A DNA stretch of 64,000 nucleotides. Source: the human T2T-CHM13v2.0 reference genome, Homo sapiens. The translations under genes were made by a program, and so were the position numbers. The stretch spans positions 1,056,001 through 1,120,000 of the forward strand of contig CP068257.2 in NCBI GenBank assembly GCA_009914755.4, in the 5' to 3' direction. The first letter of the stretch is position 1. Each line of letters opens with the position of its first letter. Positions 6,139 to 61,357 of this stretch are shown here, piece by piece. Under the pieces are notes generated by a model. The model had not been told where the DNA came from, made no database searches, and worked only from the letters and a program-made list of their open reading frames with translations.

Positions 6139-8590
<2,452 letters not shown>

Positions 8591-14500: not shown

Positions 14501-16971
14501 GTGATGTAACTCTTGTCTATATCTGCCTACTGGCGGCAATGTGGCATATTTCTGCACTGATCACCCAGGTGATTGACTCTTGTCTTGGATCTGCCTATGG
14601 TGGCATAGTGACATATCTCTGCTCTGATCACGCATATGATGTAACACTTGTCTAAGCTGTCCCTAAAGGGGAATTGCGACAGATATCTCCACTGATCAGC
14701 CAGTTGATATAACAATTTTCTGGGATTTGTCTACACGGGTCTTTTTGACATATCTTTGCACTGGTCACCCAGGAGATGTAATTGCTTTCTTGGTTCGGCC
14801 TACAGGAGCTTTGTGACATATTTCTGCACTGATCACCCAGGTGATGTAACTCTTCTTTAGGCTCTGCCTACAGGGGCTTTGTGACAAATTTCTGCACTGA
14901 TCACCCATGTGATGTAACTCTTGTCTAGGCTATACCTACAGGGGTTACTGTGATGTACATCTGCACTGATCACCCAGGTGATGTAACTCTTTTCTAGGAT
15001 CTGCCTACAGTGTGCTTTTTGACATATCCCTGCAGTGATCACCCAGGTGATGTACCACTTGTCAAGGCTCTGCCTACAGGGACATTGCGATGTATCTCTG
15101 CACTGATCACCTAGGTCATGTAACTATTTTCTAGGCTCTGCCTACGGTGGCATTGTGACAACTCTGCACTGATCACCCAGGTGATGGGACTCTTGTCTAG
15201 GCTCTGCCTACAGGGGCATTGTTACATATCTCTGCAGTGATCACGGAGTTGATGTAGCTCTTGTCTATATCTGCCTACTAGCGGCATTGTGGCGTATTTC
15301 TGCACTCATCACCCAGGTGATGGACTCTTATCTTGGATCTGCCTATGGGGGCATAGTGACATATCTCTGCACTGATCACTCATGTGATGTAACGTGTTTC
15401 TAAGCTTCGCCTAAATGGGAATTGTGACAGATATCTCCACCGATCACCCAGGTGATGTAACAATTTTCTGGGATTTGTCTACAGGGGGCTTTGTGACATA
15501 TCTTAGCACTGATCACCCAGGTGATGTAACTCTTGTCTAGGCTCCACCTACAGGGTGTATTGTGACGTATCTCTGCACTGATCACCCAGGTGATGTAACA
15601 TTTATCTAGGCTCTGGTGCGTTTTGACATAGCTCTGCACAGATCACCTAGGTTATGTAACTCTTGTCCACTCTCTGCCTACAGGGGGCATTGTGAAATAT
15701 CTCTGCACTTATCACCCAGGTGATGGGACTCTTCTCTATACTCTGCCTAGAGTTGGAACTGTGACATATCTCTGCACTGATCACCCAGGTGATGGAAGGC
15801 TTGTCTAGGCTCTATCTATGGGGGCATTGTGTCAAATATCTGCACTGATCACCCAGATGATGTAACTCTTTTCTAGGTCCTGTCTACAGGGATTTTTGTG
15901 ACGTATCACTGCACTGATCACCTAGGTGATGTAAGCCTTGTATGGGCTTTTCCTACAGAAGGCTTTGTGACATATCTATGCACTGATCTCTGAGGTGATG
16001 CAACTCTTGTCTAGGCACTGCCTACAGGGGACGTTGGTACATATCTCTGCACTGATCACCCAGGTGATGGACTCTTGTCTTAGATCTGCCCACATGGACA
16101 TTGTGACACATCTCTGACCTGATCAAACAAGTGATGAAACTCTTGTCTAGGCTCTGCCTACAGGGGCTTTGTGACACATCTCTGCACTGATCACCCTGGG
16201 GAGGGAACTCTGGTCTACGGTCTGCCTACAGGAGGCTTTATGACTTATACCTGCACTGATAAACTAGGTGATGTAACACTTGTCTAGACTCTGCCTTCAC
16301 GGGAATTCTCACATATCTCTGAACTGATCACCCAGTTAATGTAACTCATTTCTAGGTTCAGCCTATAGGAGCGTTTTGACATATCTCTGCACTGATCACT
16401 AAGGTGATGTAACCCTTGTCTTAGCTCTGCCTACAGGGGCATTGTGAAAGATCTCTCCACTGCTCACCCAGGTGATGTAACAATTGTCTGGGTTTTGCCT
16501 ACAGGGAACTTTGTGATATACATTTCCACTGATCAAACAGATGATGTAACCCTTGTCAAAGTTCTGCTTACAGGGGCTTTGTGACATAGCCCTGCACTGA
16601 TCACCCCAGGGAGGAAACACTTTTCTACACTCTGCCTACAGGAGGCTTTATGACTTATCCCTGCACTGATCCTTAGGTGATGTAATACTTGTCTGGGCTC
16701 TGTCTACAAGTGAATTTTCACATATCTGTACACTGATCACCTAAGTGATGTAACCCTTGTGTAGGTTCAGCCTACTGGGGATTTCTGACATACATATGCA
16801 CTGATCACCGAGGTGATGTAAATTATTTCCAGGCTTTTTGTACAGGGGACATTGTGATATATCTCTGCACTGATCACCCAAATGATGCAAATCTTCCCTA
16901 GACTCCGCAGGAAGAGGACATTGTGACATATTTCTGAACTGATCATCCAGGAGATGTAACTATTCTCCAGG
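8591..16971 (+). repeat. Beta-satellite array, orientation F
   Basis: Same 68-bp monomer family and orientation as 1-6138. Ends with the same diverged approx. 400-bp monomer block (16560-16971) immediately before the next D4Z4-like unit. Confidence 0.9.
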
Positions 16972-19790
<2,819 letters not shown>

Positions 19791-22700
19791 CCTGTCTAGG
19801 CTCTGCCTACAGGGGCTTTGTGACATATCTCTGCAGTGATCACCCAGGTGATGGGACTTTTGTCTAGCCTCTGCCTATGGGGGCATTGTGACATATCTCT
19901 TCACTGATCACCCAGGTGATGTAACTGTTGTGTTGGATCTGCCTATGGGGGCATTGTGAGATATTTCTGCACTGGTCACCCAGGTGATGGGACCCTTGTC
20001 TAGGCTCTGTGTACGGGGGCTTTGTGACATATCTCTGCACTGATCACCCAGGTGATGTAACGCTTGACTAGGCTCTGTCTACGGGGCATAGTGACATATC
20101 ACTACATTGATCACCGAGGTGATGTAACTCTTGCCCAGACTCGGCCAATAAAGGGCCTTGTGACATATCTCTGCGCTGGTCACCAAGGTGATATAACAGT
20201 TGCTTACACTCTGGCTGCAGGGGCATTGTGAAATATCTCTGCACTGATCCCCCAGGTGATGGGACTCATTTCTAGGCTCTGCCTCCTGGGGGAATTGTCA
20301 TATATTTCTGCACTGATCACCCAGGTAACAGACTCTTGTCTTGGATTTGCCTATGGGGGCATTGTGACATATCTCTGCACTGATCACCCAGGTGATGTAA
20401 CCCTGGTCTAAGCTCTGCCTAAAGGGGCATTGTGACAGGTCTCTGCAATGATCACTCAGGTGATGTAACTATTGTCTAGGCTCTGCTTAAATGGGCCTTG
20501 TCACATATCACTGCACTGATCACCCAGGTGACGTAACTCTTGTCTAGGCTCTGCTTTCAGGTGGTATTGTGACATATCTCTGCACTGATCACATAAGTGA
20601 TGTAACAATTGTGTAGGCTCTGCCTACAGGGGCATTTTGACATATCTCTGCACTGTTAAACGAGGTGATGTAACTCTTGTCTAGGCTGTGCCCACAGGGG
20701 TATTGATACACGTCTCTGCACTGATCCCGAGGTGATCGAACTCTTGTCTGGTCTCTGCCTACTGGGGACATTGTGACATAACTCTGCACTGATCTCCCAG
20801 GTGCTGTAACTTCAATCTAGGCTCTGGCTACACGGCATTGTGACATATCACTGCACTGATCAACCAGGTGATATAACTCTTGTATAGGCTCTGCCTACAG
20901 GGGGTTTGTGACACATCTCTGCATTAATCACCCAGGTGATATAACTCTTCTCTAGGATCTGCATACAGGGTGCTTTGTGACATATCCCTGCAATGATCAC
21001 CCAGGTGATATACCACTTGTCAAGGCTCTGCCTACAGGGGCATTGTGACAGAACACTGCACTGATCACCCAGGTGATGGGACCCTTGTCTAGTCTCTTCC
21101 AACCGTGGCATTGTGACATATCTCTGCACAGATCACGCAGGTGATGTAAATCTTTTCTAGGATCTACCTACAGGGTGCTTTGTGACATGTCTCTGCAGTG
21201 ATCACCCAGGTGATATACCACTTGTCAAGGCTCCGCCTACAGGGACATTGCGATGTATCTCTGCACTGATCACCTATGTCATGTAACTCTTGTCTAGTCT
21301 CTGCCTACAGTGGCATTGTGACATATCTCTGCACTGATCATCCAAGTGATGTAACTCTTGTCTAAGATCTGCCTAAAGGGACTTTGTAACATAACTCTGC
21401 ACTGATCATCCAGGTGATGGGGCTTTTGTCTAGGCTCTGCCTAAGGGGGCATTGTGACAGATTTCTGCACTGATCACCCAGGTGACGGACTCTTGTCTTG
21501 GATCTGCCTATGGGCGCATTTTGACATACCTCTGCACTGATCACCCAGGTGATGTAACTATTGTATAAGCTCTCCCTACAGGGGAATTGTGAGAGATCTC
21601 ACCACTGATCACCCAAGTGATATAATTATTGTCTAGGCTTTGCCTACAGTGGGCTTTGTGACATACCATTGCACTGATCAGCCAGGTGATGTAACTCATC
21701 TAAGTTTTGTCTACAGAAGCTTTGTGACATATCTCTACACTGATCACTTAGGTGATGTAACGATTTTATAAGCACTGCCTACAGGGAATTTTGACAAATC
21801 TCTGCACTGATCACCTAGGTGATGTAACTCTTGTCTACCCTCTGCCCAGAGGGGGCATTGTGAAATATCTCTGCACTGATCACCCAGGTGATTCAACTCT
21901 TGTCTAGGATCTGGCTACAGGGGGTATTGTGAAATATCTCTGCACTGATCAACCAGGTGACGTAAATGTTGTCTAGTCTCTGTCTTGTCTATGCTCTGCC
22001 TACAGGGGCAATGTGACATATCTCTGCAGTGATCACGCAGGTGATGTAACTATTGTCTATATCTGCCTACTGATGGCATTGTGGCATATTTCTGCACTGA
22101 TCACCCAGGTGATGGACTCATGTCTTGGATCTGCCTATGAGGCATAGTGACATATCTCTGCACTGATCACTCATGTGATCAAACGCTTGTCTAAGCTGCG
22201 CCTAAAGGGGAATTGTGACAGATATCTCCACTGATCACCCAGGTGATGTAACAATTTTCTGGGATTTGTCTACTGGGGGCTTTGTGACACATCTTTGCAC
22301 TGATCACCCAGGAGATGTAACTCTTGTCTAGGCTCGGCCTACAGGTGTTTTGTGATATAGTTCTGCACTGATCACCCAGGTGATGTAACACTTGTCTAGG
22401 CTCCGCCTACAGGGGCTTTGTGACATATCTCTGCACTGATCACCCGGGTGATGTAACTCTTGTCTAGGCTCCACCTACAGGGGGTATTGTGACGTATCTC
22501 TCCACTGATCACCCAGGTGATGTAACATTTTTCTAGGCTCTGCCTACTGGGGCGTTTTGACATAGCTATGCACAGATCACCTAGGTTGTGTTACTCTTGT
22601 CCACTTTCTGCCTACAGGGGGCATTGTGAAATATCTCTGCACTGATCACCCAGGTAATGGGACCTTTCTCTTTACTCTGCCTAGAGGAGGATTTGTGACA

Positions 22701-25700
22701 TATCTCTGCACTGAACACCCAGGTGATGTGCCACTTGTCAAGGCTCTGCCTACAGGACATTGTGATGTATCTCTGCACTGATCACCTAGGTGATGTAACT
22801 CTTGTCTAGGCTGTTTCTACAGTGGCATTGTGACATATCTCTGCACTGATCATCCAAGTGAAGTAACTCTTGTCTAGTATCTGCCTAAAGGGACTTTGTG
22901 ACATAACTCTGCACTGATCATCCAGGTGATGGGCTTTTGTCTAGGCTCTGCCTAGGGGGCATTGTGGCATATTTCTGCACTGATCACCCAGGGGATGGAC
23001 TCTTGTCTTGGATCTGCCTATGGGGGCATTGTGACATATCTCTGCACTGATCACCCAGGTGATGTAACTGTTGTATAAGCTCTGCCTACAAGGGAATTGT
23101 GAGAGATCTCGCCACTGATCACCCAAGTGATGTAACTATTCTCTAGGCTTTGCCTATAGGGGGCTTTGTGACATACCTTTGCACTGATCAGCCAGGTGAC
23201 GTAACTAAGCTAAGTTCTGCCTACAGGAGCTTTGTGACATATCTCTGCACTGATCACTTAGGTGATGTAACACTTTTACAAGCACTGCCTACAGGGAATT
23301 TTGACGAATCTCTGCACGGATCATGTAGGTGATGTAACTCTTGTATACCCTCTGCCCAAAGGGGGCATTGTGAAATATCTCTGCACTGATCACCCAGGAG
23401 ATTCAACTCTTTTCTACGATCTGCCTACAGGGGGTATTGTGAGATATCTCTGCACTGATCAACTAGGTGTTGTAAATAGTTTCTAGGCTCTGCCTACAGG
23501 GGCGTTTTCACGTTTCCCTGAACTGATGACAAAGGTGACGTAACTCTTGCCTTGGCTTTGCCTACAGGGGACATTGTGACATACCTCTGCACTGATCACC
23601 CAGGTGATGCCACTCCTCTCTATGCTCTGCCTTCAGGGGACATTGTGACATATCTCTGCAATGATCACCGAGGTGATGTAACTCTTTTCTAGTCTCTGCC
23701 TACAGAGGGCGTTGTGACATCACTCTGCATGGATCACCCGGGTTATGTAACTCTGGTCTAGGCTCTACCTATAGGGGTATTGTGACTTATCTCTGCACTG
23801 ATCACCCAGGAGATGTGACACTTGTCTATGCTCTGCATAGAGGGACATTGGGACATATCTCTGCACTGATCACTGAGGTGATGTAAAAGTTGTCTAGGCT
23901 TTGCCTACAGTGGGATTTATGACATATCTCTGCACTGATCACCCAGGTGATGTAACTCTTCTCTAGGATCTGCCTACAGGGTGCTTTGTGACATATCCCT
24001 GCAATGATTACCCAGGTGATATACCACTTATCAAGGCTCTGCCTACAGGGACATTGCGATGTATGCCTGCATTGATCACCTAGGTAATGTAACTCTTGTC
24101 TAGGCTCTGCCTACAGTGGCATTGTGACAGATGTCTGCACTGATCACCCAGGTGATGCAACTCTTCTCCATGCTCTGCCTACAGGGGACATTGTGACATA
24201 TCTCTGCACTGATCACCAAGGTGATTCAGCTCTTCTTTATGCTCTGCCTTCAGAGGGCATTGCGAAATATCTCTGCACTGATCACTCAGGTGATGTAACT
24301 CTTTTCTAGTCTCTGCCTACAGAAGGCGTTGTGACTTCACTGTGCACGGATCACCCGGGTTATGTAACTGTTGTCTAGGCTCTGCCTATGGGGGCATTGT
24401 GACTTATCTCTGCACTGATCACCCAGGAGATGTGACTCTTGTCTAAGCTCTGCCTGGAGGGACATTGGGACATATCTCTGCACTGATCGCTCAGGTGATG
24501 TAAAATATTTGTAGGCTATTCCTACAGTGGGATTTATGACTTATCTCTGCACTGGTCACCCAGGTGATGTAACTCTTGTCTAGGCTCTGCTTACAGGGCG
24601 TATTGTGAGTTATCTCTGCACTGATCACACTGGTGATGTAACGCTTGTCTAGGCTCTGCCTACAGGAGCATTTTAACATATCACTGCACTGACAACCGAG
24701 ATGATGTAACTCCTGTATAGGCTTTGCCGACAGGGGGCATTGAGACATACCTCTGCACTGATCACCGAGGTGATGCAACTCTTCTCTATGCTCTGCCTAC
24801 AGGGGGCATTGTGACATATCTCTGCAATGATCATCCAAGTGATGTAACATTTGTCTAGGATCTGCCTCAAGTGGCTTTGTGACATAATTCTGCACGGATC
24901 ATCCAGGTGATGGGGATTTTGTCTAGGCTCTGCCTAAGGGGCATTGTGACATGTTTCTGCACTGATCACCCAGGTGACGGACTCTTGTCTTGGATCTGCC
25001 TATGGGGGCATTGTGACATATCTCTGCACTAATAACCCAGGTGATGTAACCGTTGTATAAGCTCTGCCTACAGGGGAATTGTGAGAGATCTCGCCACTGA
25101 TCACCTAGGTGATGTATCTATTGTCTAGGCTTTGTCTACAGGGGGCTTTGTGACATACTTTTGCACTTATCACACAGGTGATGTAACTCATCTAAGTTCT
25201 GCCTACAGGAGCTTTGTGACATATCTCTGCACTGATCATTTAGGTGATGTAACACTTTTATAAGCACTGCCTACAGGGAATTTTGACAAATCTCTGCACT
25301 GATCACCTTGGTGATGTAACTCTTCTCTACCCTCTGCCCAAAGGCGGCATTGTGAAATATCTCTGCATTGATCATCCAAGTGATTCAACTCTTGTCCAGG
25401 ATCTGCCTACAGAGATTATTGTGAAATATCTCTGCACTGATAAACTAGGTGATGCAATTCTTCTCTATGCTCTGCCTACAGGGGACATTGTGACTTATCT
25501 CTGCACTGATCACCCAGGAGATGAAACTCTTTTCTAGTCTGTGCCTACAGAGGGCGTTGTGACATCACTCTGCACGGATCACCCGGGTTATGTAACTCTT
25601 ATCTATGCTCTGTCTATGGGGGCGTCGTGACTTATCTTTGCACTGATCACCCTGGAGATGTGACTCTTGTCTAAGCTCTGCCTAGAGGGACATTGGGACA

Positions 25701-26099
25701 TATCCCTGCACTGATAGCTGAGGTGATGCAAAACTTGTCTAGGCTTTGCCTGCAGTGGGATTTATGACAAATCTCTGCACTGATCACCCAGGTGATGTAT
25801 CTCTTTTCAATACCCTCTGCTTACAGAGGGTATTGTGAGATATCTCTGCACTGATCACCCAGGTGATGTAACTCTTGTGTAGGCTCTGCCTACAGGGGCC
25901 TTTTCACATATCACTGCACTGATCACCGAGATGATGTAACTCTTCTATAGGCTTCGCTGACAGGGGGCATTGAGACATATCTCTGCACTGATCACCGAGG
26001 TGATGCATCTCTTGTCTGGGATGTGCTTACAGGGGGCATTGTGAAATATCTCTGCCCTGATCACCCAGGTGATGTAACTCTTGTCTAGGCTCTGCTTAC
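19791..26099 (+). repeat. Beta-satellite array, orientation F
   Basis: 68-bp monomers, same orientation as the arrays to the left. Confidence 0.9.
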
Positions 26100-27852
26100 T
26101 GCAGTCGGAAGGTGTTGGGAGAACCTCAGCCAAAATTTCACAGATGGACAAGGGCACAGAGAGGCGAGCGACCTCCTTGCACGTCACAAGGGGTGCACAA
26201 TGAGAGCAGGTCTAGCCAGGAGGCTGGCAAAGAGAGCTAGAGGTCTGCGTTTCGCTGCCAGGCGCTCCATTGTGGCAGTTGGGAGGCTGCAGGTGCACGG
26301 GCGGGCTGGCGACGGTGGCGCAGAGGTGCACATGAGGCGAGCCACCGGAGGGGTGTCAGGACTGGACGCTGTGGGTTGCCCGTGTTTCGCGGGACAGGGG
26401 TCTCCGACCAGCCCAGGGGAGGATGCATTTTCCGGGGGTGGGGTTTGGGGTGGGGTGGGGGTGGTCAGGCGGGGGTGGGGTGGTGGAAAGGCATGAGTGC
26501 TCTGCCCTGGCTGCTCCCACAGCCCAGGCGGCTGCCCGCAAACCCACGCGTGTGCAGTAGGTGGCCCACCTGCTGGTACCTGGGCTGGATCTGAGATCCC
26601 CAGGATGCCCAGGAAAGAATGGCAGTTCTCCGCTGTGTAGACTCTCTCACCAGGCCTAGATCTAGAAGGCAGCAATCCCAGGCCGGTCAGCCTGGTTGAG
26701 GGAGCAGGTGGAAGACACGCCGCTCCATAGCCAGCCAGGTGTTCCCCGCGAAAGAGAGGCCACCGCCCTGCCCCGACCTGACCCCGTCCCAAACCCGCGA
26801 CCTAAAGTTCCTCCATCAGAGCCCGGCATTCTTCCTAGCTGAGTGGTGCTTCCAGCAAGACGGCCTCTTGCAAGACCTCCAGCTCCCCCAGGGCCTCCGA
26901 TTCTAGGAATGTTGCGCCTGCTGCAGAATCTCCGGGCTCACAAGGAGCTCATCCAGCAGCCCGGAGGGGAGTGCAGATGAGCACTCCAGCTCCTGGAGCA
27001 CCTGGGAGGGCGCCAGCAGGCCTTACATCTGCCCCTGCCGCACGGAGGCCTCCAGGGGCACGGGCAGGCGAGGTGGAGCTGCCCCGGCTTGGAGTTCCCC
27101 CGCAGCCCCGGTGACCTGCGGTCCCTAGCCCCTGCCCAACCACGGACTCCCCTGGGACGCGGGTGGCACAAGCACACCATGGCCCTGTGGCCCTGCTTGA
27201 GCGGGCCCAGGCTGTCCCACCGCCCAAGGGCCCCACAGGGCGTCACGCTGCAAGACCCGGCCCTCCCGGCTTTTGCCCGGTTGCGGAGGCAACCGAGGAG
27301 CCTGAGGGTGGGAGATCGCCCCTTCCGGAGGAGCAGGGGCGGCGTAGGCAAAATTCCCGCGTGCCGGGACAGGTTGGGAGATCCCTTCTGCCGGCGCGGC
27401 CTGGCTGGGCTGGAGCACGGGGACGGCCCTCGCTCCCTGGATCATGAAGCACCCTGTAGGAGAGCCCCAGGCACGCAGGGCACGTGGGGTGCCAGAAGCC
27501 CTATCCCCGGAAAATGCATCCTCACCTGGGCTGGGTGTAGACCCCCATCCGCGAAATATCAGGCCCGCCCACCGTGCAGGCCTAACACACCTTCAGCGGC
27601 TCGCCTCCTCTGCGCCTCCCCGCCACCATCGCCAGCCCGCCAGTGACCCTGTAGCCTCCCAATTGCCACCATGGAACGCCTGGTGTCGGAATGCAGACCT
27701 CTAGCTCTCTTTGCCAGCCTCCTCACTAGACCTGCGCTCATTGCGCAACCCGGCTGACGTGCAAGGGAGCCCGCTGGCCTCTCTGTGCCCTTGTCCGTCC
27801 GTGAAATTCCAGCTGAGGCTCTCCCAACACCTTTCGATGCTCTTTACTCAAA
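26100..27852. repeat. D4Z4-like unit C: inversion-junction fragment. Antisense 3' flank plus DUX4L C-terminal half (26100 to about 27490) fused to a sense-oriented copy of the 3' flank (about 27495-27852)
   Basis: 26100-26470 and 27495-27852 are inverted, roughly 85% similar copies of the D4Z4-like 3' flank (…ccccggaaaatgcatcc…gccaccatggagcgcctgg…tctagctctctttgccagcctcc…gtgaaattccagctgagg…). The switch from antisense DUX4 body (…ggcacgcagggcacgtggggtgc) to sense 3' flank (ccccggaaaatgcatcctc…) lies at about 27488-27500. Confidence 0.8.
26806..27490 (-). pseudogene. DUX4L: DUX4-like pseudogene fragment (C-terminal half only), truncated at the inversion breakpoint
   Basis: Reverse complement reads …[54 protein letters not shown] degraded C-terminus. 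It is homologous to the units B/D C-terminal regions and has no homeobox part. Confidence 0.7.
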
Positions 27853-30800
27853 GCCTGGAGAATAGTTACATCTCCTGGATGATCAGTTCAGAAATATGTC
27901 ACAATGCCCACTCCCTGCGGAGCCTAGAGAAGATTTGCATCATTTGGGTGATCAGTGCAGAGATATATCACAATGTCCCCTGTACAAAAAGCCTGGAAAT
28001 GATTTACATCACCTCGGTGATCAGTGCATAGGTATGTCAGAAATCCCCAGTAGGCTGAACCTAGACAAGGGTTACATTACTTAGGTGATCAGTGTAGAGA
28101 TATGTGAAAATTCCCGTGTAGATATTTGACACAATGCCCCCGTAGACAGAGCCTAGACAAGACTTCCATTACCTGGGTGATCAGTTCAGATATATGTCAC
28201 AAATCCCCCTCTAGTCAGAGTATAGAGAAGAGTCCCATCACCTGGGTGATCAGTGAAGAGATATTTCACCATGCCCCCTGTAGGCAGAGAGTGGACAAGA
28301 GTTACATAACCTAGGTGATCTGTGCAGAGCTATGTCAAAATGCCCCTGTAGGCAGATCCTAGGTAAATGTTACATCACATTGTTGATCAGTGCAGAGATA
28401 CGTCTCAATACACCTTGTAGGTGGAGCCTAGACAAGAGTTACATCACCTGTGTGATAGGTGCAGAGATATGTCACAATACCCCCTGTAGGTGGAGCCTAG
28501 AGAAGAGTTACCTCACCTGGGTGATCAGTGCAGAAATATGTCACAAAGCCCCTGTAGGCCAAACCTAGACAAGCGTTACATCTCCTGGGTGATCAGTGCA
28601 AAGATATGTCACAAAGCCCCCTGTAGACAAATCCCAGAAAATTGTTACATCACCTGAATGATCAGTGGAGATATCTGTTCCATTTCCCCTTTAGGCGCAG
28701 TTTAGACAAGCGTTACATCACATGAGTAATCAGTGCAGAGATATGTCACTATGACCCCATAGGCAGATAAAAGACAAGAGTCTATCACCTGGGTGGTCAG
28801 TGCAGAAATATGCCACAATGCCGCCTGTAGGCCGATATAGACAAGAGTTACATCACCTGCGTGATCACTGCAGAGATATGTCACAATGCCCCTGTAGGCA
28901 GAGCCTAGACAAGGGTCCCATCACCTGGGTGATCAGTGCAGAGTTATGTCACAATGCCCCCTTTTGTCAGAGCCTACACAAGGGTTACATCACGTGGGTG
29001 ATCAGTGCAGATGTGTGTCACACGCCCCCTGTAGCCAGACCCTAGACAAGAGTTACATCAGCTGTGTAATCAGCGCAGTGACATGTCACAATGTCCCTGT
29101 AGCCAAATCCTTGAGAAATATGACATCACCTGGTTGATCAATGCGGAGATATGTCACAATGTCTCCAGTAGGCAGAGCCTAGACAAGAGTTGCATCACCT
29201 CGGTGATCAGTGCACAGATATGTCTCAATGCCCCCTGTCGTCAAAGCCTATACAAGAGTTACATCATCTCTGTGATCAGTGCAGTGATATGTTAAAATGC
29301 CCCTGTAGGCAGAGCCTAGACAAGAGTTACATCACCTGAGTGATCAGTGCAGAGATATGTCATAAATCCCACTGTAGGCAAAGCCTTGACAAGTTTTACA
29401 TCACCTCAGCGATTAGTGCAGATATATGTCCCAATGTCCCTCTGGGCAGAGCTTAGAAAAGAGTCACACCTCCTGGGTGATCAGTGCAGAGATAAGGCAC
29501 AATGCCCCCTTAGGCAGAGCCTAGACAAGAGTTACATAACCCGGGTGATCCGTGCAGAGTGATGTCACAACTCCCTCTGTAGGCAGAGACTAGAAAAGAG
29601 TTACATCACCTGGGTAAGCAGTGCAGAGGTATGTCACAATGCTCCCTGTAGGCATAGCATAGAGAAGAGTTGCATCACCTGGGTGATCAGTGCAGAGAGA
29701 TGTCACAATGTGCCCTGTAGTCAGAGCATAGAGAACAGTTGCATCACCTGTGTGATCCGTGCAGAAATATGTCACAAAGCCCCCATACACAGAGCCTAGA
29801 CAAGAGTCCCATCACCTGGGTGATCAGTGCACAAATATGTCACAATGCCCCAATAGGCAGATCCAACACAAGAGTTACATCACCTGGGTGATCAGTGTAG
29901 AGATATGTCACAATGCCCCCATAGGCAGAGCCTAGACAAAAGTTCCATCACCTGGTTGATCAATGCAGAGATATGTCATAAAGCCCCTTTAGGCAGAGCC
30001 TAGACAAGAGTTACATAACCAGGGTGATCCGTGCAGAGATATTTCACAATACCCCCTGTAGGGTGATCCAAGACAAGAGTTGAATCACCTGGGTGGTCAG
30101 TGCAGAGATATTTCACAATGCCCCCTTTGGGCAGAGGGTAGACAAGAGTTACATCACCTAGGTGATCAGTGCTGAGATTTGTCAAAATACCCTGTAGGCA
30201 GTGCTTATAAAAGTGTTATATCACCTAAGTGGGCAGTGCAAAGATATGTCACAAAGCTGCTGTAGGCAGAACTTAGATAAGTTACATCACCTGGGTGATC
30301 AGTGCAAAGGTATGTCACAAAGCCCCCTGTAGGCAAAGCCTAGACAATAGTTACTGAACTTGGGTGATCAGAGGCGAGATCTCTCACAGTTCCCCTGTAG
30401 GCAGAGCTTATACAACAGTTACATCACCTGGGTGATCAGTGTAGAGATATGTCACAATGCCCCCATAGGCAGATCCAAGAGAAGAGTCCGTCACCTGGAT
30501 GATCAGTGCAGAAATATGTCACAATGCCACCTTAGGCAGAGCCTAGACAAAAACCTCATCACCTGTATGATCAGTGCAGCGTTATGTCACAAAGTCCCTT
30601 TAGGCAGATCCTAGACAAGTGTTACATCACCTGGATGATCAGTGCAGAAATATGTCACAATGCCACTGCAGGCAGAGTCTAGACAAGTGTTACATGACCT
30701 AGTTGATCAGTGCAGAGATACATCACAATGCCCCTGTAGGCAGATCTTTGACAAGTGGTACATCACCCGGGTGATCATTGCAGGGATGTGTCACAAAGCA

Positions 30801-33800
30801 CATTGTAGGGAGATCCTACAAAAGAGTTACATCACCTGGGTGATCAGTGCAGAGATATGTCACAATGCCACTGTAGGCAGAGCCTAGACAAGATTTACAT
30901 TACCTAAGTGATCAGTGCAGAGATACATCGCAATGCCCCTGTAGGCAGAGCCTTGACAAGCGGTATATCACCTGGGTGATCAGTGCAGAGATATGTCACA
31001 ATGCCGTGTAGCCAAAGCCTAGACTAAAATTACAGCACCTGGGAGATCAGTGCAGAGGTATGTGACAATGTCCCCAGTAGGCAGAGACCAGGCAAGAGTT
31101 GGATCACCTCGGGATCAGTGCAGAGATATGTCTCAATCACCGTCTGGGCACAGCCTAGACAAGAGTTACATCACCTCGGTTAACAGTGCAGAGATATGTC
31201 AAAACGCCCCTGTAGGCAGAGCCTACACAATTGTTACATCACTTAGGTGATAAGTGCATAGATATGTCACAATATGCCCTGTAAGCAGAGCCTAGACAAG
31301 AGTTACATAACCTGGGTGATCAGTGCAGAGATATGTGACAAGGCCCCTTTAAGCAGAGCATAGACAATACTTACATCACCTGAGTGATCAGTGCACAGAT
31401 CTATCAAAATGCCCCTTTAGGCAGAGCTTAGACCAGAGTTACATCACCTGGGTGATCAGTGCAGAGAGATGTCACAATGCCCCCATAGGCAAATCCAAGA
31501 CAAGACTCCGTCACCTGGGTGATCAGTGCAGAAATATGTGACAATGACCCCAGCAGGCAGAGCCTATAGAAGAATCCCATCACCTGGGTGATCAGTGCAG
31601 AGATATTTCACAATGCGCCTGCAGGCAGAGCATAAGCAAGAGTTACATCACCAAAAGATCAGTGCAGAGATATGTCACAAGCCCCCCAATAGGCAGAGCC
31701 TGGACAAGAGTTACATCACCTTCGTGATCAATGCAGTGATATGTCACTATGCCCCGTAGGCAGTGCCTAGTCAAGCGTTACATCACCTGGGTGATCAGTA
31801 CAGAGATATGTCACAAAGCCCCCAAACACAGAGCCTAGACAAGAGTCCCATCACCTTGGTGATCAGTGAAGAAATATGTCACAATGCCCCCATAGGCAGA
31901 TACAACACAAGAGTTACATCACCTGGATGATCCGTGTAGAGATATGTCACAATGCCCACATAGGCAGGGCCTAGACAAAAGTCCCATCACCTGGGTGATC
32001 CGTGCAGAGTGATGTCACAACGCCCTCTGTAGGCAGAGACTAGAAAATTGTTGCATCACCTAGGTGATCAGTGCAGAGATATGTTTAAATGCCCCCTGTC
32101 GGTGAAGCCTATACAAGAGTTACATCATCTCGGTGATCAGTGCAGTGATATGTTAAAATGCCCCTGTAGGCTAGGCAAGAGTTACATCACCAGGGTTATC
32201 AGTGCAGAGATATCTACAATACGCCCTGTAAGCAGAGCCTAGACAAGTGTTACATCAGCTGGTGATCAGTGCAGAGATATGTCATAAATCCCACTGTAGG
32301 CAAAGCCTATACAAGTTTTCCATCACCTCAGCGATCAGTGCAGAGATATGTCCCAATGCCCCTCTAGGCAGAGCATAGACAAGAGTTACATAACCCGGGT
32401 GATCCGTGCAGAATGATGTCACAACGACCTCTGTAGACAGAGACTAGAAAAGAGTTACATCACCTGGGTGATCAGTGCAGAGATATGTCACAATGCCCCC
32501 TGTAGGCAGAGCATAGAGAAGAGTTGCATCACCTGGGTGATCAGTGCAGAGATATGTCACAATATCCCCTATAGGCAAAGCCTAGGCAAGAGTTACATCA
32601 CCTTTGTCATTCATTCAGTGATATGTGAAAATGCCCCAGTAGGCAGAGCCTAGACAAGAGTTACATCACCTAGTTGATCAGTGCAAAGATATTTCACAAT
32701 ACCTAAATTCCCTGTAGGCTGTGCTTATAAAAGTGTTACATCACATAAGAGATCAGTGCAGAGATATGTCACAAAGCTCCTGCAGGCAGAACTTAGATGA
32801 GTTACACAACCTGTGTGATCAGTGCAAAGGTATGTCACAAAGCCCCCTGTATTCAAAGCCTAGACTATCGTTACATCACTTGGGTGATCAGTGGCGAGAT
32901 CTCTCACAATTCCCCTGTAGGCAGAGCTTATACAACTGTTACATCACCTGGGTGATCAGTGCAGGGATATGTCCCAATGCCCCAATAGGCAGATCCAAGA
33001 CAAGAGTCCATCACCTGGGTGATCAGTGCAAAGGTATGTCACAAAGCCCCCTGTAGGAAAAGCCTAGACAATAGTTACATAACTTGGGTGATCAGTGGCA
33101 AGATCTCTCACAATTCCCCTGTAGGCAGAGCTTATACAACAGTTACATCACCTGGGTGATCAGTGCAGAGATATTTCACAATACCCCTGCAGGCAGAGCG
33201 TAAGCAAGTGTTACATCACCTAGGTGATCAGTGTAGAAATATGTCACAAGGCCCCCTATGGGCAGAGACTGGAGAAGAATTACATCACCTCGGTGATCAA
33301 TGCAGTGATATATCACTATGCCCCGTAGGCAGAGCCTAGTCAAGCATTACATCACCTGGGAGATCAGTGCAGAGATATTTCACAATACCCCCCGTAGGCA
33401 GATCCTAGACAAGAGTTGAATCACCTGGTTGATCAGTGCAGAGATATATCACAATGCCCCCTTTGGGCCGAGGGGAGACAAGAGTTACATCACCTAGGTG
33501 ATCAGTGCAGAGATTTGTCAAAATTCCCTGTAGGCAGTGCTTATAAAAGTGTTACATCACCTAAGTGATCAGTGCAGAGTTATGTCACAAAGCTCCTGTA
33601 GGCAGAACTTAGATGAGTTACGTCACCTCTGTGATTAGTGCTATGGTATGTCACAAAGCCCCCTTTAGGCAAAGCCTAGACAAGAGTTACATCACTTGGG
33701 TGATCAGTGGCAGGATCTCTCACAATTCCCCTGTCGGCAGAGCTTATACAACATTTACATCACCTGGGTGATCAGTGCAGACATACGTCCCGATGCCCCC

Positions 33801-34779
33801 ATAGGCAGATCCAAGACAAGAGTCCGTCACCTTGGTGATCATTGCAGAAATATGTCACAATGCCCCCTTAGGCAGAGCCTAGACAAAAGCCCCATCACCT
33901 GGATGATCAGTGCAGATTTATGTCACAAAGTCCCTCTAGGTAGATCCTAAACAAGAGTTACATCACCTGGGTGATCAGTGCAGACATATGTCACACTGCC
34001 TCTGTAGGCAGCGCCTAGACAAGTGTTACATGACCTAGGTGATCAGTGCAGAGATACATCGCAATGACCCTGTAGGCAGAACCTTCACAAGTGGTATATC
34101 AGGTGGGTGATCATTGCAGGTATATGTCACAAGGCACCCTGTAGGCCGATCCTAGAGAAGAGTTATATCACCTGGGTAATCAGTGCAGAGATATGTCACA
34201 AGCCCCCTGTAGGCAGAGCCTAGTCAAGAGTTATATCTCCTGGGTGATCAGTGCAGTTATATGTCACGATGTCGTGTAGCCAGAGCCTAGACTAAAGTTA
34301 CAGCACCTTGGAGAACATTGCAGATATATTTCGCAATGCCCCTGCAGGCAGACCGTAAGGAAGAGTTACATCACCTAGATGATCAGTGCAGAGATATGTC
34401 ACAAGGCCCCCTATAGGCAGAGCCTGGACAAGAGTTGCATCATCTCGGTGATCAATGTAGTGATATGTCACTATGCCCTGTAGGCAGAGCCTAGTCAAGC
34501 GTTACATCACCAGGGTGATCAGTGCAGAGATATGTCACAAAGCCCCCATAAACAGAGGCTACACAAGTGCCCCATCACTTTGGTGATCAGTGCAGAAATA
34601 TGTCACAATGCCCCCACAGGCACACCCAAGAGAAGAGTTACATCACCTGGGTGATCAGTGTAGAGATATTTCACAATTCCCCCTTAGGCAGAGCTTAGAC
34701 AAAAGTCCCATCACCTGGGTGATAAAAGCAGAGATATGTCACAAACCCCCTGTAGGCAGAGCCTAAACAAGAGTTACTT
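27853..34779 (-). repeat. Beta-satellite array, orientation R (reverse complement of the monomer seen at 1-26099)
   Basis: Monomer approx. cagagcctagacaagagttacatcacctgggtgatcagtgcagagatatgtcacaatgcccctgtaggcaga, the exact reverse complement of the left-hand arrays. Begins with the reverse complement of the diverged flank-associated monomer block. Confidence 0.9.
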
Positions 34780-37569
<2,790 letters not shown>

Positions 37570-40500
37570 CCTGGAGAATAGTTACATCTCCTGGATGATC
37601 AGTTCAGAAATGTGTCACAATGCCCCTTCCTGCGGAGACTAGAGAAGATTTGCATCATTTGAGTGATCAGTGTAGAGATATATCACAATGTCCTCTGTAT
37701 AAAAAGCCTGGAAATGATTTACATCACCTCGGAGATCAGTGCATAGGTATGTCAGAAATCCCCAGTAGGCTGAACCTAGACAAGGGTTACATCACTTAGG
37801 TGATCAGGGTAGAGATACCTGAAAATTCCCGTGTAGACAGAGCCTAGACAAGTGTTACATCACCTAGTGATCAGTGCAGGGATAAGTTGTAAAGCCTCCT
37901 GTAGGCAGAGTGTAGACAAGTGTTTCCTCTCTGGGGTGATCAGTGCAGAGTTATGTCACAAAGCCCCTTTAAGCAGAACCTCGACAAGGGTTACATCACC
38001 TGTTTGATCAGTGGAAATGTATATCACAAAGCCCCCGTAGGCAAAGCCCAGACAATTGTTACATCACCTGGGTGAGCAGTGGAGAGATCTGTCACAATGA
38101 TTCTGTCGGCAGAACTTAGACAAGGGTTACATCACCTGGGTGATCAGTGCAGAGATATGTCAAAACGCTACTGTAGGCTGAACCTAGGAATGAGTTACAC
38201 CAACTGGGTGATCAGTGCAGAGATATGTGAGAATTCCCGTGTAGGCAGAGTCTAGACAAGTGTTACATCACCTAGGTTATCAGTGCAGGTATAAGTCATA
38301 AAGCCTCCTGTAGGCAGAGCGTAGACAAGAGTTCCCTCCCCAGGATAATCAGTGCAGAGATGTGTCACAAAGCCCCTGTAGGCAGAGCCTAGACAAGAGT
38401 TACATGACCTAGGTGATCAGTGCAGAGACACATCGCAATGTCCCTGTAGGCAGAACCTTGACAAGTGGTACATCACCTGGGTGATCATTGCAGGGATATG
38501 TCACAAAGCACCTTGTAGGCAGACCACAGAGAAAAGTTATATCACCTGGGTGATCAGTGCAGAGATATGTAAAAAGCCCCCTGTAGGCAGAGCATAGACA
38601 AGAGTTACATCACCTGGGTGATCAGTGCAGAGATTTGACACAATGCCCCCATAGACAGAGCCTTGACAAGACTTCCATTACCTGGGTGATCTGTGTAGAG
38701 ATATGTCACAAATCCCCCTCCAGGCAGAGTATAGAGTAGAGTCCCATCACCTGGGTGATCAGTGCAGAGATATTTCACAATGCCCCTTGTACGCAGAGAG
38801 TGGACAAGAGTTACATAACCTAGGTGATCTGTGCAGAGCTATGTCAAAACGCCCCTGTAGGCAGAGGCTAGATAAATGTTACATCACCTGGGTGATCAGT
38901 GCAGAGATACGTCACAATACCCCATGTAGGTGGAGCCCAGACAAGAGTTACATCACCTGGGTGATCAGTGCAGAGATACGTCACAATAACCCCTGTAGGT
39001 GGAGCCTAGACATTAGTTACATCACCTGGGTGATCAGTGCAGAGATATGTAACAAAGCCCCTGTAGGCAGAGCCTAAACAAGAGTTACATCACCAGGGCG
39101 ATCAATTTAGAAATATGTCACAAAGCCCCGTAGGCCGAGCCTAGACAAGACTTACATCTCCTGGGTGATCAGTGCAAAGATATGTCACAAAGCCAACTGT
39201 AGACAAATCCCATAAAATTGTTACATCACCTGAGTGATCAGTGGAGATATCTGTCACAATTCCCCTTTAGGCGAAGCTTAGAAACACGTTACATCACATG
39301 AGTGATCAGTGCAGAGATATGTCACTATGCCCCCATAGGCAGATCCAAGACAAGAGTCCATCACCTGGGTGATCAGTGCAGAAATAAGCCACAATACCGC
39401 CAGTAGGCAGATATAGACAAGAGTTACATCACCTGCGTGATCACTGCAGAGATAAGTCACAATGCCCCTGTAGGAAGAGCCTAGAGAAGAGTCCCATCAT
39501 CTGGGTGATCAGTGCAGAGTTATGTCTCAATGCCCCCTTTTGGCAGAGCCTAGACAAGCGTTACATCACCAGGGTGATCAGTGCAGGGAAGTGTCACAAG
39601 CCCCCAGTAGCCAGAGCCTAGACAAGAGTTATATCAGCTTTGTGATCAGTGCAGTGACATGTCACAATGTCCATGTAGCCATATCATTGAGAAAAGTGAC
39701 ATCACCTTGGTGATCAGTGTGGAGATATGTCACAATGTCTCCAGTAGTCAGAGCCTAGACAAGAGTTACATCACCTGGATGATCAGGGCAGAGACATGTC
39801 ACAATGCCCCCTGTAAGCAGATCCCAGACAAGAGTTGCATCACCTCGGTGATCAGTGGAGAGATACGTCTCAATGCCCCCTGTCAGCGAAGCCTATACAA
39901 GAGTTACATCATCTCGGTGATCAGTGCAGTGATATGTGAAAATGCCCCTGTAGGCAGAGCCTAGACAAGAGTTACATCACCTGGGTGATCAGTGCAGAGA
40001 TATCTCATGGTACCCCCTGTAAGCAGAGCCTAGACAAGAGTTACATCACCTGGGTGATCAGTGCAGAGATATGTCATAAAATCCACTGTAGGCAAAGCCT
40101 AGACAAGTTTTACATCACCTCAGCGATCAGTGCAGAGATATGTCCCAATGTGCCTCTAGGCAGAGCTTAGAGAAGAGTCACATCTCCTGGGTGATCAGTG
40201 CGGAGATAAGTCACAATGCCCCCGTAGGCTGAGCCTAGACAAGAGTTACATAACCCGGTTGATCCGTGCAGAGATAAGTCCCAATGCTCCCATAGTCAGA
40301 GCCTAGAAAAGTGTTACATAACCCAGGTGATCCGTGCAGAGTGATGTCACACCGCCCTCTGTAGGTAGAGACTAGAAAAGAGTTACATCATCTGGGTGAT
40401 CAGTGCAGAGATATGTCGCAATGCCCACTGTAGGCAGATCATAGAGAAGAGTTGCATCACCTGGGTGATCAGTGCAGAAATATGTCACAATGCCCTCTTT

Positions 40501-41869
40501 GGCAGAGCCTAGACAAAAGCCCCAACACCTGGATGATCAGTGCAGAGTTATGTCACAATGCCACTGTAGGCAGAGCTGAGACAAGCGTTACATGACCTAG
40601 ATGATCAGTGCAGAGATACATCGCAATGCCCCTGCAGGCAGAGCCTTGAGAAGTGGTATATCACCTGGGTGATCATTGCAGGGATATGTCACAAAGCACC
40701 CTGTAGGCAGATCCTAGAGGAGAGTTATATCACCTGGGTGATCAGTGCAGATATATGTCACAAGCCCCCTGTAGGCAGAGCCTAGACAAGAGTTATATCA
40801 CCTGGGTGATCAGTGCAGTGATATGTCACAATGCCGTGTAGCCAGAGCCTAGACTAAACTTACAGCACCTGGGAGATCAGTGCAGAGATATGTCACAATG
40901 TCCCCAGTAGGCAGAGACCAGGCAAGAGTTGGATCACCTCGGCATCAGTGCAGAGATATGTCTCAATCCCCGTGTGGGCATAGCCTAGACAAGAGTTACA
41001 TCACCTCGGTTAACAGTGCAGAGATATGTCAAAATGCCCCTGTAGGCAGAGCCTACACAACTGTTACATCACTGAGGTTATCAGTGCAGATATATGTCAC
41101 AATACCCCCTGTAAGCAGAGCCTAGACAAGAGATACATCACCTGGGTGATCAGTGCAGAGATATGTGACAAGGCCCCTTTTAACAGAGCCTAGACAATAG
41201 TTACATCACCTGAGTGGTCAGTAAATAGATCTGTCACAATGCCCCTTTAGGCAGAGCTTAGACCAGAGTTACATCAGCTGGGTGATCAGTGAAGAGATAT
41301 GTCAGAATGCCCCCATAGGCTCATCCAAGACAAGATTCCTTCACCTGGGTGATCAGTGCAGAAATATATGACAATGCCCCCAGTAGGCAGAGCCTAGAGA
41401 AGAGTCCCATCACCTGGATGATCAGTGTAGAGATATTTCACAATGCCCCTGCAGGCAGAGCGTAAGCAAGTGTTACATCACCTAGATGATCAAGTGCAGA
41501 GATATGTCACAAGGCCCCCTATAGGCAGAGCCTGGACAAGAGTTACAACACCTCGAAGATCAATGCAGTGATATGTCACTATGCCCCGAAGGCAGAGCCT
41601 AGTCAAGCGTTGCATCACCTGGTTGATCAGTGCAGAGATATGTCACAAAGCCCCCATACACAGAGCCTAGACAAGAGTCCCATCACCTGGGTGATCAGTG
41701 CAGATATATGTCACAATGCCCTCATAGGCTGATCCAACACAAGAGTTACATCACCTGGGTGATCAGTGTAGGGACATGTCAAAATGTCCCCATAGGCAGA
41801 GCCTAGACAAAAGACCCATCACCTGGGTGATCAGTGCAGAGATGTGTCACAAAGCCCCTGTAGGCAGAG
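37570..41869 (-). repeat. Beta-satellite array, orientation R
   Basis: 68-bp monomers, R orientation. Confidence 0.9.
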
Positions 41870-44542
<2,673 letters not shown>

Positions 44543-45162
44543 CAAGGCCTGGCACACACCGGGGACGCTGAGCGTTTCAGGTGGGAGGGAAGGCGGGCAG
44601 AGATGGAGAGAGGAACCAGAGACCTAAAGGGGCAGAAGGATGGGCGGAGGGAATTTAGCAGGGGGGAAAGGAGGGAAGGAGGGAGGGAGGGAAGCAGGGA
44701 GGAACGAAGGGAAAGAAAGAGAGACGCAGTGACTGGGTGCGGGCGGGAGGGAGCCAGGGAGAGAGGGAGGAAGGCAGAGAAGAAAAGTGGTCTTCGGCCT
44801 CTCGGAGGAACGGGACCCCCGCCCTCCGGGAAAATGGTAAGCATCCGGCACAAGCTGAGGGCTCAGGAAACAGCCGCCGCGTCTGCCGGCGGAGCAGTCA
44901 TTCGCTCCGTTTCCGTGGCCCAGGGAATGGGCAGTTTCCTCTGAGACAAAAGACCGGGACTCGGGTTGGCATCGGGTTTTCACCGGCATGGATCACAGAC
45001 CGCACATCCCCAGGCTGAGCCCCACAATGGAGCACGAGGCCGACAGCCCCGACCGCGGAGGAGCCACACTTGGGACGAAGGAGGCGTGATGTTGGTTTCC
45101 GCGTGGCTTTGCCCTCTGCAAGGCGGCTTGTTGCTCACTTCTCTCCGGCCCCCGAAAAGTTG
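44543..45162. other. About 620-bp non-satellite spacer between tandem D4Z4-like units E and F. Contains a purine-rich (GGAAGG/GGGAGG) low-complexity tract at about 44640-44800
   Basis: No similarity to the beta-satellite monomer or to the 3' flanks of units A-D and G. It replaces the beta-satellite array found between all other unit pairs. Confidence 0.7.

Positions 45163-45537: not shown

Positions 45538-47224
<1,687 letters not shown>

Positions 47225-56509: not shown

Positions 56510-61357
<4,848 letters not shown>

What the first reader, a model, noticed from the sequence alone, without database searches (positions are those of the whole stretch)
26100..27852. Orientation-switch (inversion) junction of the whole beta-satellite/D4Z4 domain, marked by an inverted-repeat-flanked DUX4L fragment
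Left of about 27490 every beta-satellite monomer and every D4Z4-like unit (A, B, C-arm1) is in one orientation; right of it all (C-arm2, D, E, F, G) are reverse-complemented. The switch occurs inside unit C. An antisense DUX4 body (…ggcacgcagggcacgtggggtgc) is fused, with a possible 'cccc' microhomology, to a sense-oriented copy of the 3' flank (ccccggaaaatgcatcc…). This leaves two inverted arms of about 360 bp at roughly 85% identity (26100-26470 and 27495-27852) around a roughly 1-kb DUX4 C-terminal fragment. A structure like this could extrude a hairpin or cruciform. It also marks the breakpoint of an inversion much larger than the window, because the arms are divergent rather than a recent perfect palindrome (units B and D are not mirror images).
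Basis: seen in the sequence. Interest (0 to 1): 0.6.

Follow-up and report, generated by a model that had tools for sequence, protein, structure and literature searches.

The report
Strand-switch breakpoint in beta-satellite/D4Z4 array
This is a real, old rearrangement scar where a human beta-satellite/D4Z4-like repeat array flips orientation inside one truncated DUX4 pseudogene unit; such flips are already known to occur by the hundred in these arrays, so it is an ordinary example with no sign of a function.

Summary
The window is a human LSau/beta-satellite composite array: 68-bp beta-satellite interspersed with D4Z4-like DUX4 pseudogene units, abutting HSat3 at 61.4 kb. Orientation changes exactly once, inside unit C. 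The junction lies at 27499-27508. An antisense unit, truncated at about DUX4 residue 188, is joined to the last ~360 bp of a sense unit. The join is between non-homologous positions and overlaps by CCCC, or by an imperfect ~10-bp C-rich motif. This leaves inverted arms at 26101-26437 and 27505-27840 (82% identical) around a 1,067-bp spacer.

The arms are no closer to each other than any two units in the window (79-86%). The flanks show no mirror symmetry, and only arm 2 keeps the canonical unit-adjacent beta-satellite. The junction therefore most likely joined two already distinct units by microhomology-mediated repair, not by a fold-back duplication.

Four independent metagenome contigs carrying human contaminant DNA span the junction at ~99% identity, so it is not an assembly artefact.

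Cruciform extrusion is unlikely given the 1-kb spacer and 18% mismatch. The claim of an inversion much larger than the window is unproven, because the right-hand domain ends at HSat3 inside the window. Strand switches in beta-satellite arrays are already catalogued by the hundred. Interest is low.

The parts
7..26099 (-). Left domain. It holds about 20.9 kb of 68-bp beta-satellite plus D4Z4-like units A (6125-8573) and B (16959-19752). The DUX4 sense is on the minus strand throughout.
26101..26437 (-). Arm 1. This is the last ~340 bp of a D4Z4-like unit (the 3' flank downstream of the DUX4 remnant), in antisense. The beta-satellite on its outer side is generic, not the canonical unit-adjacent type.
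26438..27504 (-). The 1,067-bp spacer, which is the continuation of the same antisense unit. It contains a G-rich run, the 3' UTR-like region, and DUX4 C-terminal remnants: residues 390-424 at 26909-26805 and residues 203-388 at 27460-26912. The remnant extends to about residue 188 at the junction. It is frameshifted, has stop codons, and keeps no homeobox.
27499..27508 (.). The junction, CCCTATCCCC. The certain microhomology is CCCC at 27505-27508. Both parental sequence types carry a CCCCAYYCCCC-like motif here, so the overlap may be up to ~10 bp and imperfect. No inserted bases are present.
27505..27840 (+). Arm 2. This is the last ~340 bp of a second D4Z4-like unit, in sense orientation, 82% identical to the reverse complement of arm 1.
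27841..28128 (+). The canonical unit-adjacent, pLAM-type variant beta-satellite monomers that follow arm 2. They differ at only a few positions from the flanks of units A, B, D, F and G.
27864..61360 (+). Right domain. It holds about 21.6 kb of beta-satellite in the opposite orientation plus units D (34810-37585), E (41912-44541), F (45169-47925) and G (56559-59345). The DUX4 sense is on the plus strand. The domain ends at HSat3 (TGGAA)n, which starts at 61377.

Best explanation
This is a germline strand-switch (inversion) breakpoint inside a human LSau/beta-satellite composite array.

A break or a stalled fork inside one D4Z4-like unit, at about DUX4 codon 188, was repaired by joining it to a non-homologous position ~360 bp from the 3' end of a different unit lying in the opposite orientation. 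The join used a short C-rich microhomology (CCCC, possibly ~10 bp imperfect). That points to alternative end joining or a microhomology-mediated template switch.

The result is two 5'-truncated units joined head to head, each with its 3' end and beta-satellite pointing outward. The 337-bp 'inverted arms' are simply the part of the unit present on both sides of the join. They were already diverged copies when they were joined. The junction has no function. It is a stable rearrangement scar carried in several human haplotypes.

Shown: the single switch, the junction position, the microhomology, the absence of mirror symmetry, and the presence of the junction in independent samples.
Inferred: the repair pathway, the claim that two distinct units were joined, and the age.
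For: - One switch only.
- The two colinear segments meet at 27499-27508 at non-homologous unit positions, ~1,400 bp versus ~360 bp from the unit 3' end. They share CCCC and there is no filler.
- The unit identity matrix is star-like. Over the arm segment all eight copies are 79-86% alike, and C1-C2 at 80.7% sits at the low end. Units do not cluster by side of the junction. The mirror pair B-D is not elevated.
- The flanking beta-satellite in mirror register is 78% identical, the same as any other register.
- Arm 2 keeps the canonical unit-adjacent beta-satellite monomers shared by A, B, D, F and G. Arm 1 is followed by generic beta-satellite at ~69%.
- The arms differ by 55 substitutions, 26 of them transversions, plus indels. 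This is deep divergence and not only CpG decay.
- The exact 31-bp junction sequence occurs in 6 metagenome contigs. Four of them are ~99% identical to the window over 1.0-5.9 kb spanning the junction. They differ from the window and from each other at scattered sites, so several haplotypes or near-identical copies carry it.
- The class is documented. [quoted passage not shown] Hundreds of strand switches, scaling with array length, are reported across 320 assemblies (10.64898/2026.07.22.740206).
Against: - The partner breakpoint is not in the window. A balanced two-break inversion, an inverted insertion, and a very old inverted duplication later scrambled by array turnover therefore remain formally open.
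- The first-tier spacing is roughly symmetric. The beta-satellite blocks are 6,347 bp and 6,946 bp to full-length units B and D. This could be a faint relic of a fold-back, although the second tier is not symmetric (8,385 bp versus 4,326 bp).
- A 4-bp overlap in a C-rich context is weak evidence for any specific repair pathway.
- The chromosome of origin could not be determined with these tools.
Confidence: 0.85

Rival explanations
1. Fold-back inversion, meaning an inverted duplication with a spacer. A replication fork or broken end in unit C switched template at the CCCC to the complementary strand ~1 kb behind and copied back outward. This would create an initially perfect palindrome with a 1,067-bp spacer that has since decayed.
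For: - The geometry fits: a ~1-kb spacer, a microhomology junction and no filler.
- The distances from unit C to the next full-length units are similar, at 6,347 bp and 6,946 bp.
Against: - The arms (80.7-82%) are no more alike than unrelated unit pairs (79-86%), and mirror pair B-D is not elevated.
- The beta-satellite in mirror register is at background, 78%.
- Arm 2 has the canonical flanking monomers and arm 1 does not.
- If the event predates the amplification burst, units should cluster by side of the junction. They do not. Unit B on the left shares its 1.5-kb flank structure with F and G on the right at 88-93%.
Confidence: 0.1
2. Assembly artefact. The apparent switch is a mis-join between two oppositely oriented reads or contigs in a hard-to-assemble satellite.
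For: Satellite arrays are prone to mis-assembly, and no read data are available here.
Against: - The junction 31-mer is present in six independently assembled metagenome contigs.
- Four of them are colinear with the window at ~99% across the whole of unit C or large parts of it. L006 covers 25661-28371 and L004 covers ~22100-27950.
Confidence: 0.02
3. Structure-forming or functional inverted repeat. The arms would extrude a cruciform or hairpin that makes the site fragile or acts as a boundary. Alternatively, read-through transcription would give a hairpin RNA.
For: As a single strand, the 1,753-nt segment folds with 296 arm-to-arm base pairs in the minimum-energy structure. Divergent, widely spaced inverted repeats can anneal in long single-stranded DNA (PMC10164571).
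Against: - 18% mismatch, a longest perfect run of 31 bp and a 1,067-bp GC-rich spacer.
- In duplex DNA such parameters abolish inverted-repeat instability.
- The junction is stable across several haplotypes.
- The surrounding tens of kilobases are equally 'inverted repeat', so the arms are not special.
- There is no evidence of transcription.
Confidence: 0.03

Closest known systems
Strand switches (inversion breakpoints) in beta-satellite / LSAU-BSAT composite arrays of T2T human assemblies (Altemose et al., 10.1101/2021.07.12.452052; Asian pangenome centromere preprint, 10.64898/2026.07.22.740206)
   Same: There is an abrupt, single change of strand within a contiguous beta-satellite composite array next to HSat3. 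The composition is the same: 68-bp monomers plus LSau/D4Z4-like units.
   Different: Those studies count and map switches at array scale. This report resolves one junction to the base: it lies inside a D4Z4-like unit, at non-homologous positions, with CCCC microhomology. Whether this particular breakpoint is in their tables could not be checked.
Divergent 5'-truncated D4Z4-pLAM copies in LSAU-BSAT regions of the acrocentric short arms and pericentric chr1 (Butterfield et al. 2023, PMC10620044)
   Same: The units are ~2.8 kb with a DUX4-like double-homeobox ORF remnant, and a pLAM-like 3' end runs straight into beta-satellite.
   Different: Unit C is not a standard copy. It is a composite of the 3' 1.4 kb of one unit and the 3' 0.36 kb of another in opposite orientation.
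Yq11 DUXY locus (Schmidt et al. 2009, PMC2671837)
   Same: It has the same imperfect tandem arrangement of beta-satellite blocks, LSau repeats and DUX4-related pseudogenes. Beta-satellite monomer identity there is ~70-75%.
   Different: The DUXY genes are all head-to-tail, number four, and have different block sizes. The window has 7-8 units and a strand switch, so it is not that locus.
Fold-back inversions / inverted duplications with spacer (breakage-fusion-bridge or template-switch products)
   Same: Two copies of the same sequence face each other across a ~1-kb spacer and are joined at a microhomology.
   Different: The defining mirror identity of arms and flanks is absent.

Membership tests
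LSau/beta-satellite (LSAU-BSAT) composite satellite array | Tandem 68-bp beta-satellite (Sau3A family) monomers | tested here: met
   TRF finds period 68 (and multiples 137 and 205) across 7-26099 and 27864-61342. The conserved core GATCAGTGC is present 329 times.
LSau/beta-satellite (LSAU-BSAT) composite satellite array | Interspersed GC-rich D4Z4/LSau-like units carrying DUX4-like double-homeobox sequence | tested here: met
   There are seven to eight units at 62-69% GC. tblastn with DUX4 (sequence recalled from memory) hits every unit at 70-86%. The unit B ORF matches solved DUX4 homeodomain structures at E=1.5e-68.
LSau/beta-satellite (LSAU-BSAT) composite satellite array | Location on acrocentric short arms, pericentric chr1 or related sites | not testable with these tools
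   No human reference is available. Adjacency to HSat3 is compatible with such a location. The Yq11 DUXY locus is excluded by its structure.
Satellite strand switch / inversion breakpoint | The same satellite family continues on the opposite strand across a point within one contiguous array | tested here: met
Satellite strand switch / inversion breakpoint | The junction is reproducible in independent sequence data and is not an assembly artefact | tested here: met
   Six metagenome contigs contain the junction 31-mer. Four are ~99% colinear over 1.0-5.9 kb.
Fold-back inversion (inverted duplication with spacer) | Arms and outward flanks are mirror copies, closer to each other than to other paralogues | tested here: not met
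   Arms are 80.7-82% identical against 79-86% for any unit pair. Mirror-register beta-satellite is at the 78% background. The flanks are of different types.
Fold-back inversion (inverted duplication with spacer) | Short spacer and a microhomology junction | tested here: met
   The spacer is 1,067 bp and the overlap is CCCC.
NAHR-mediated inversion between inverted repeats | The breakpoint lies within homologous sequence in the same register on both sides | tested here: not met
   The junction joins unit position ~1,400 bp from the 3' end to position ~360 bp from the 3' end.
Cruciform-forming palindrome (PATRR-like or short-spacer inverted repeat) | Near-perfect arms with a spacer of at most a few tens of bp | tested here: not met
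   82% identity, a longest perfect run of 31 bp and a spacer of 1,067 bp. Thresholds are taken from PMC10164571.

The most novel reading that the evidence does not exclude
Unit C may be transcribed through on either strand. If so, the two 337-bp arms, which derive from the DUX4 3' flank (pLAM-proximal region), would pair into a long imperfect hairpin RNA. In the single-strand fold 296 arm-to-arm pairs form. Such a hairpin could feed Dicer/AGO small-RNA silencing of D4Z4-family repeats in trans. Strand-switch units of this type would then be sources of repeat-silencing RNA and not inert scars. Nothing here shows transcription. The idea rests only on the geometry and on my recollection that D4Z4 yields small RNAs.
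Probability: 0.03. Interest if true: 0.6.

Novelty: already known. Interest (0 to 1): 0.15.

Why it matters
The finding matters little by itself. It is one of hundreds of strand switches already counted in human beta-satellite arrays.

The modest added value is base-level anatomy. This switch lies inside a D4Z4-like unit, not in the 68-bp satellite. It is a non-homologous, microhomology-mediated join between two already diverged units, and it is stable across haplotypes.

If many switches share this anatomy, that would argue they arise by end joining or template switching at the GC-rich units. It would argue against satellite-to-satellite recombination. Unique junction sequences like this one could also serve as markers for anchoring and comparing acrocentric or pericentromeric haplotypes.

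Tried and rejected
1. Mirror-symmetry tests for a fold-back.
- Antidiagonal k-mer histogram.
- Long-HSP identity of the flanking beta-satellite blocks in every register.
- Unit-by-unit identity matrices.
- Flank matrices.
- None showed excess mirror identity, so the fold-back model was downgraded.

2. Paralogous copies of the junction.
- Contigs L002 and L003 carry the exact junction but are only 85-90% identical overall.
- Their profiles are mosaic: ~200 bp identical around the junction, then an abrupt drop, with better matches to other units of the window.
- At k-mer coverage as low as 0.6-4x (contig names of L001 and L003), this is best read as chimeric short-read assembly. I did not count them as paralogues.
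- The same applies to the outer ends of L004 and L005.

3. A degenerate junction pattern (GAAGCCCNNNCCCCGGAAAATG).
- The scan of genome contigs gave 13 hits, all unrelated bacterial chance matches.
- The scan of viral contigs gave 0 hits.

4. The Yq11 DUXY locus as the source. It was rejected on structure.

5. An intact DUX4-like gene in unit B. tblastn gave a single 424-residue HSP, but the ORF stops inside homeodomain 2, so it is a pseudogene.

7. The bacterial-type tools (promoter/terminator scan, tRNA, Rfam) were not used, because they are irrelevant to human satellite DNA.

Full report
WHAT THE WINDOW IS

TRF finds 68-bp tandem repeats over 7-26099 and 27864-61342, and (TGGAA)n from 61377 to the end. 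The 68-bp consensus contains the beta-satellite core GATCAGTGC. The (TGGAA)n block is HSat3-type.

GC-rich blocks of 2.4-2.8 kb (62-69% GC) interrupt the satellite:
- A, 6125-8573
- B, 16959-19752
- C, 26100-27863 (shorter, 1.76 kb)
- D, 34810-37585
- E, 41912-44541
- F, 45169-47925
- G, 56559-59345

A tblastn search with the DUX4 protein (424 aa, recalled from memory) hits every block at 70-86% identity. The unit B ORF at 18521-19042(-) matches solved DUX4 double-homeodomain structures at E=1.5e-68.

This is the LSau/beta-satellite composite ('LSAU-BSAT') architecture. It is described for the acrocentric short arms, pericentric chr1 and Yq11 (PMC10620044; PMC2671837; 10.1101/2021.07.12.452052). 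The chromosome of origin cannot be determined with these tools. The Yq11 DUXY locus is excluded because it has four head-to-tail genes and different block sizes.

CHECK OF THE OBSERVATION

The orientation switch is real, sharp and unique in the window.
- GCACTGATC occurs 168 times left of 27505 and never right of it. Its complement occurs 0 times left and 161 times right.
- A beta-satellite probe hits only the + strand up to 26099 and only the - strand from 27864.
- In a 20-mer self dot-plot, all forward matches lie on the same side of 27500. All 65,261 inverted matches are left-versus-right.

Unit C is a composite.
- 26104-27501 is colinear with B 16987-18382 and with the reverse complement of D, E, F and G, at 84-86%.
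- 27505-27863 matches the first ~360 bp of the same units on the other strand.

The inverted arms are 26101-26437 and 27505-27840.
- They are 280/340 identical (82%), E=1e-82, or 279/339 in a global alignment.
- The repeat finder recovers them as two gapless pieces.
Arm 1 ends at 26437, and 26438-26470 is an unpaired G-rich run.

The 1,067-bp spacer (26438-27504) carries antisense DUX4 residues 203-388 and 390-424 in different frames and with stop codons. By colinearity with unit B, the remnant starts at about residue 188. Neither homeobox survives.

THE JUNCTION

I aligned the junction with both kinds of parental sequence from the other units.
- Left parent type: ...GTGCGGGAAGCCCCGTTCCCCACGCGCC...
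- Unit C: ...GTGCCAGAAGCCCTAT-CCCCGGAAAATGCATCC...
- Right parent type: ...CACCCCACCCCCGGAAAATGCATCC...

Colinearity with the left type runs through 27501, and through 27508 against unit F. Colinearity with the right type starts at 27505, and at 27499 against unit D. The certain overlap is CCCC at 27505-27508. Because both parents carry a CCCCAYYCCCC-like motif, the overlap may be up to ~10 bp and imperfect. No bases are inserted.

The two joined positions are non-homologous, at ~1,400 bp and ~360 bp from the unit 3' end. NAHR in register is therefore excluded. The signature is that of microhomology-mediated end joining or a template switch.

FOLD-BACK, OR A JOIN OF TWO DISTINCT UNITS?

A fold-back predicts arms and outward flanks that are mirror copies. 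Four tests speak against it.
1. Over the arm segment the eight copies are 79-86% identical to one another in a star-like matrix. C1-C2 is 80.7%, at the low end. There is no clustering by side, and the mirror pair B-D (84.7%, 86.3%, 86.8% in three segments) is not elevated.
2. The beta-satellite blocks on either side of C are 78% identical in mirror register. That is the same as in any other register or against any other block (77-81%).
3. Beta-satellite directly 3' of the units is position-specific and well conserved among A, B, D, F and G (85-92% over the first 500 bp; B, F and G are 88-93% over 1.5 kb). Arm 2 keeps these canonical monomers over its first ~265 bp. Arm 1 is followed by generic beta-satellite at ~69%.
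4. B on the left shares this extended flank structure with F and G on the right. Units on the two sides therefore do not form separate lineages.

The arms differ by 55 substitutions (29 transitions, 26 transversions, only 10 of them CpG transitions) and 5 gap columns. This is deep divergence.

The simplest reading is that two already diverged units were joined. The only hint of symmetry is the similar distance to the next full-length units (6,347 bp versus 6,946 bp). The next tier is not symmetric (8,385 bp versus 4,326 bp).

IS IT AN ARTEFACT, AND IS IT SHARED?

The 31-mer across the junction occurs in six metagenome contigs, one of them named as human gut metagenome. These are presumably human contaminant DNA.
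- L006 (2,710 bp) is 99.1% identical over 25661-28371. It covers all of unit C and both satellite flanks.
- L004 is 98-100% identical over ~22100-27950.
- L001 is ~99% over 26720-27743, and L005 is ~99% over 27051-28050.
- These contigs differ from the window and from each other at 47 scattered sites. Several haplotypes or near-identical paralogues therefore carry the same junction.

This rules out a private mis-assembly and argues for a common or fixed variant. L002, L003 and the outer ends of L004 and L005 are mosaic. I treat them as short-read chimeras, not as evidence for diverged paralogous junctions.

Cruciform or hairpin. As a single strand the segment does fold arm-on-arm, with 296 pairs in the minimum-energy structure under DNA parameters. 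However, the arms have 18% mismatch, a longest perfect run of 31 bp, and a 1,067-bp GC-rich spacer. In duplex DNA, inverted-repeat instability drops ~40-fold from a 12-bp to a 20-bp spacer, drops ~300-fold by 100 bp, and disappears at 75% identity. Only in long resected single-stranded DNA do such repeats interact (PMC10164571). The arms are also not special. Tens of kilobases on each side are mutually inverted at ~78%.

Size of the inversion. Arm divergence is uninformative because it equals ordinary inter-unit divergence. The left domain runs off the window (at least 26 kb). The right domain ends inside the window, at the HSat3 boundary near 61.37 kb, after ~34 kb. No reciprocal junction is present in the window.

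COMPARISON WITH WHAT IS KNOWN

Strand switches in beta-satellite arrays are documented. [quoted passage not shown] A survey of 320 assemblies reports hundreds of switches. They correlate with array length (r=0.90), are scattered along the arrays without hotspots, and are interpreted as stochastic by-products of array expansion.

The unit type matches the 5'-truncated D4Z4-pLAM copies, of which 319 are reported in CHM13. The finding is therefore an ordinary member of a known class. The only increment is the base-pair anatomy of one junction.

VERDICT

The best explanation is an old, stable, microhomology-mediated non-homologous join between two distinct D4Z4-like units, which created a strand switch in an LSAU-BSAT array (confidence 0.85). 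It is already known as a kind, and interest is low (0.15).

Noticed in passing
window 59483-59802: An AluY-like element is inserted into beta-satellite just 3' of unit G. It has a long poly(A) tail and a target-site duplication AAAAAGCCTGGAAATG on both sides.
   Followed up: partly
window 41912-47925 (especially 44542-45168): Units E and F are joined directly, with no beta-satellite between them. E lacks the last ~170 bp (the pLAM-like part) and is followed by a 627-bp GC-rich segment found nowhere else in the window. This looks like a true D4Z4-D4Z4 tandem junction that includes the 5' part missing from the common 5'-truncated copies (compare PMC10620044).
   Followed up: partly
window 6125-8573 (unit A): Unit A has an internal ~350-bp deletion relative to unit D (D coordinates 36169-36521). 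The deletion removes about DUX4 residues 191-314.
   Followed up: no
window 17690-18955 (-), ORF 18521-19042 (-): Unit B gives a single-frame tblastn hit to all 424 DUX4 residues at 79.5% identity. However, the ORF stops inside the second homeodomain after 173 aa, counting a 29-aa upstream extension. It is a pseudogene, not an intact DUX4 paralogue.
   Followed up: yes
window: the 0.3-1.5 kb of beta-satellite next to the 3' end of each unit (e.g. 15459-16958, 37586-39085, 47926-49425, 59346-60800): The beta-satellite adjacent to unit 3' ends is position-specific. It is better conserved between units (85-93%) than the GC-rich unit bodies (79-88%) or the interior satellite (~78%). The amplified repeat was therefore a composite of unit plus flanking monomers. 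Unit C's left flank lacks this signature.
   Followed up: partly
window 61343-61400: There is a direct beta-satellite-to-HSat3 boundary...CCCCATAGTCAGATCTGACTCAACGCGAGTGGAATGAAATGGAATG.... The (TGGAA)n block continues to the end of the window with G-rich strand bias (GC skew +0.7). This could be the other end of the right-hand inverted block. That possibility was not tested.
   Followed up: no
L002, L003, and the ends of L004 and L005 (metagenome contigs): Short-read metagenome assemblies of contaminating human satellite DNA are mosaic. About 200 bp matches the window's junction exactly, and the flanks match other D4Z4-like units or satellite blocks better. This is a caution against using such contigs as evidence for paralogues.
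   Followed up: yes
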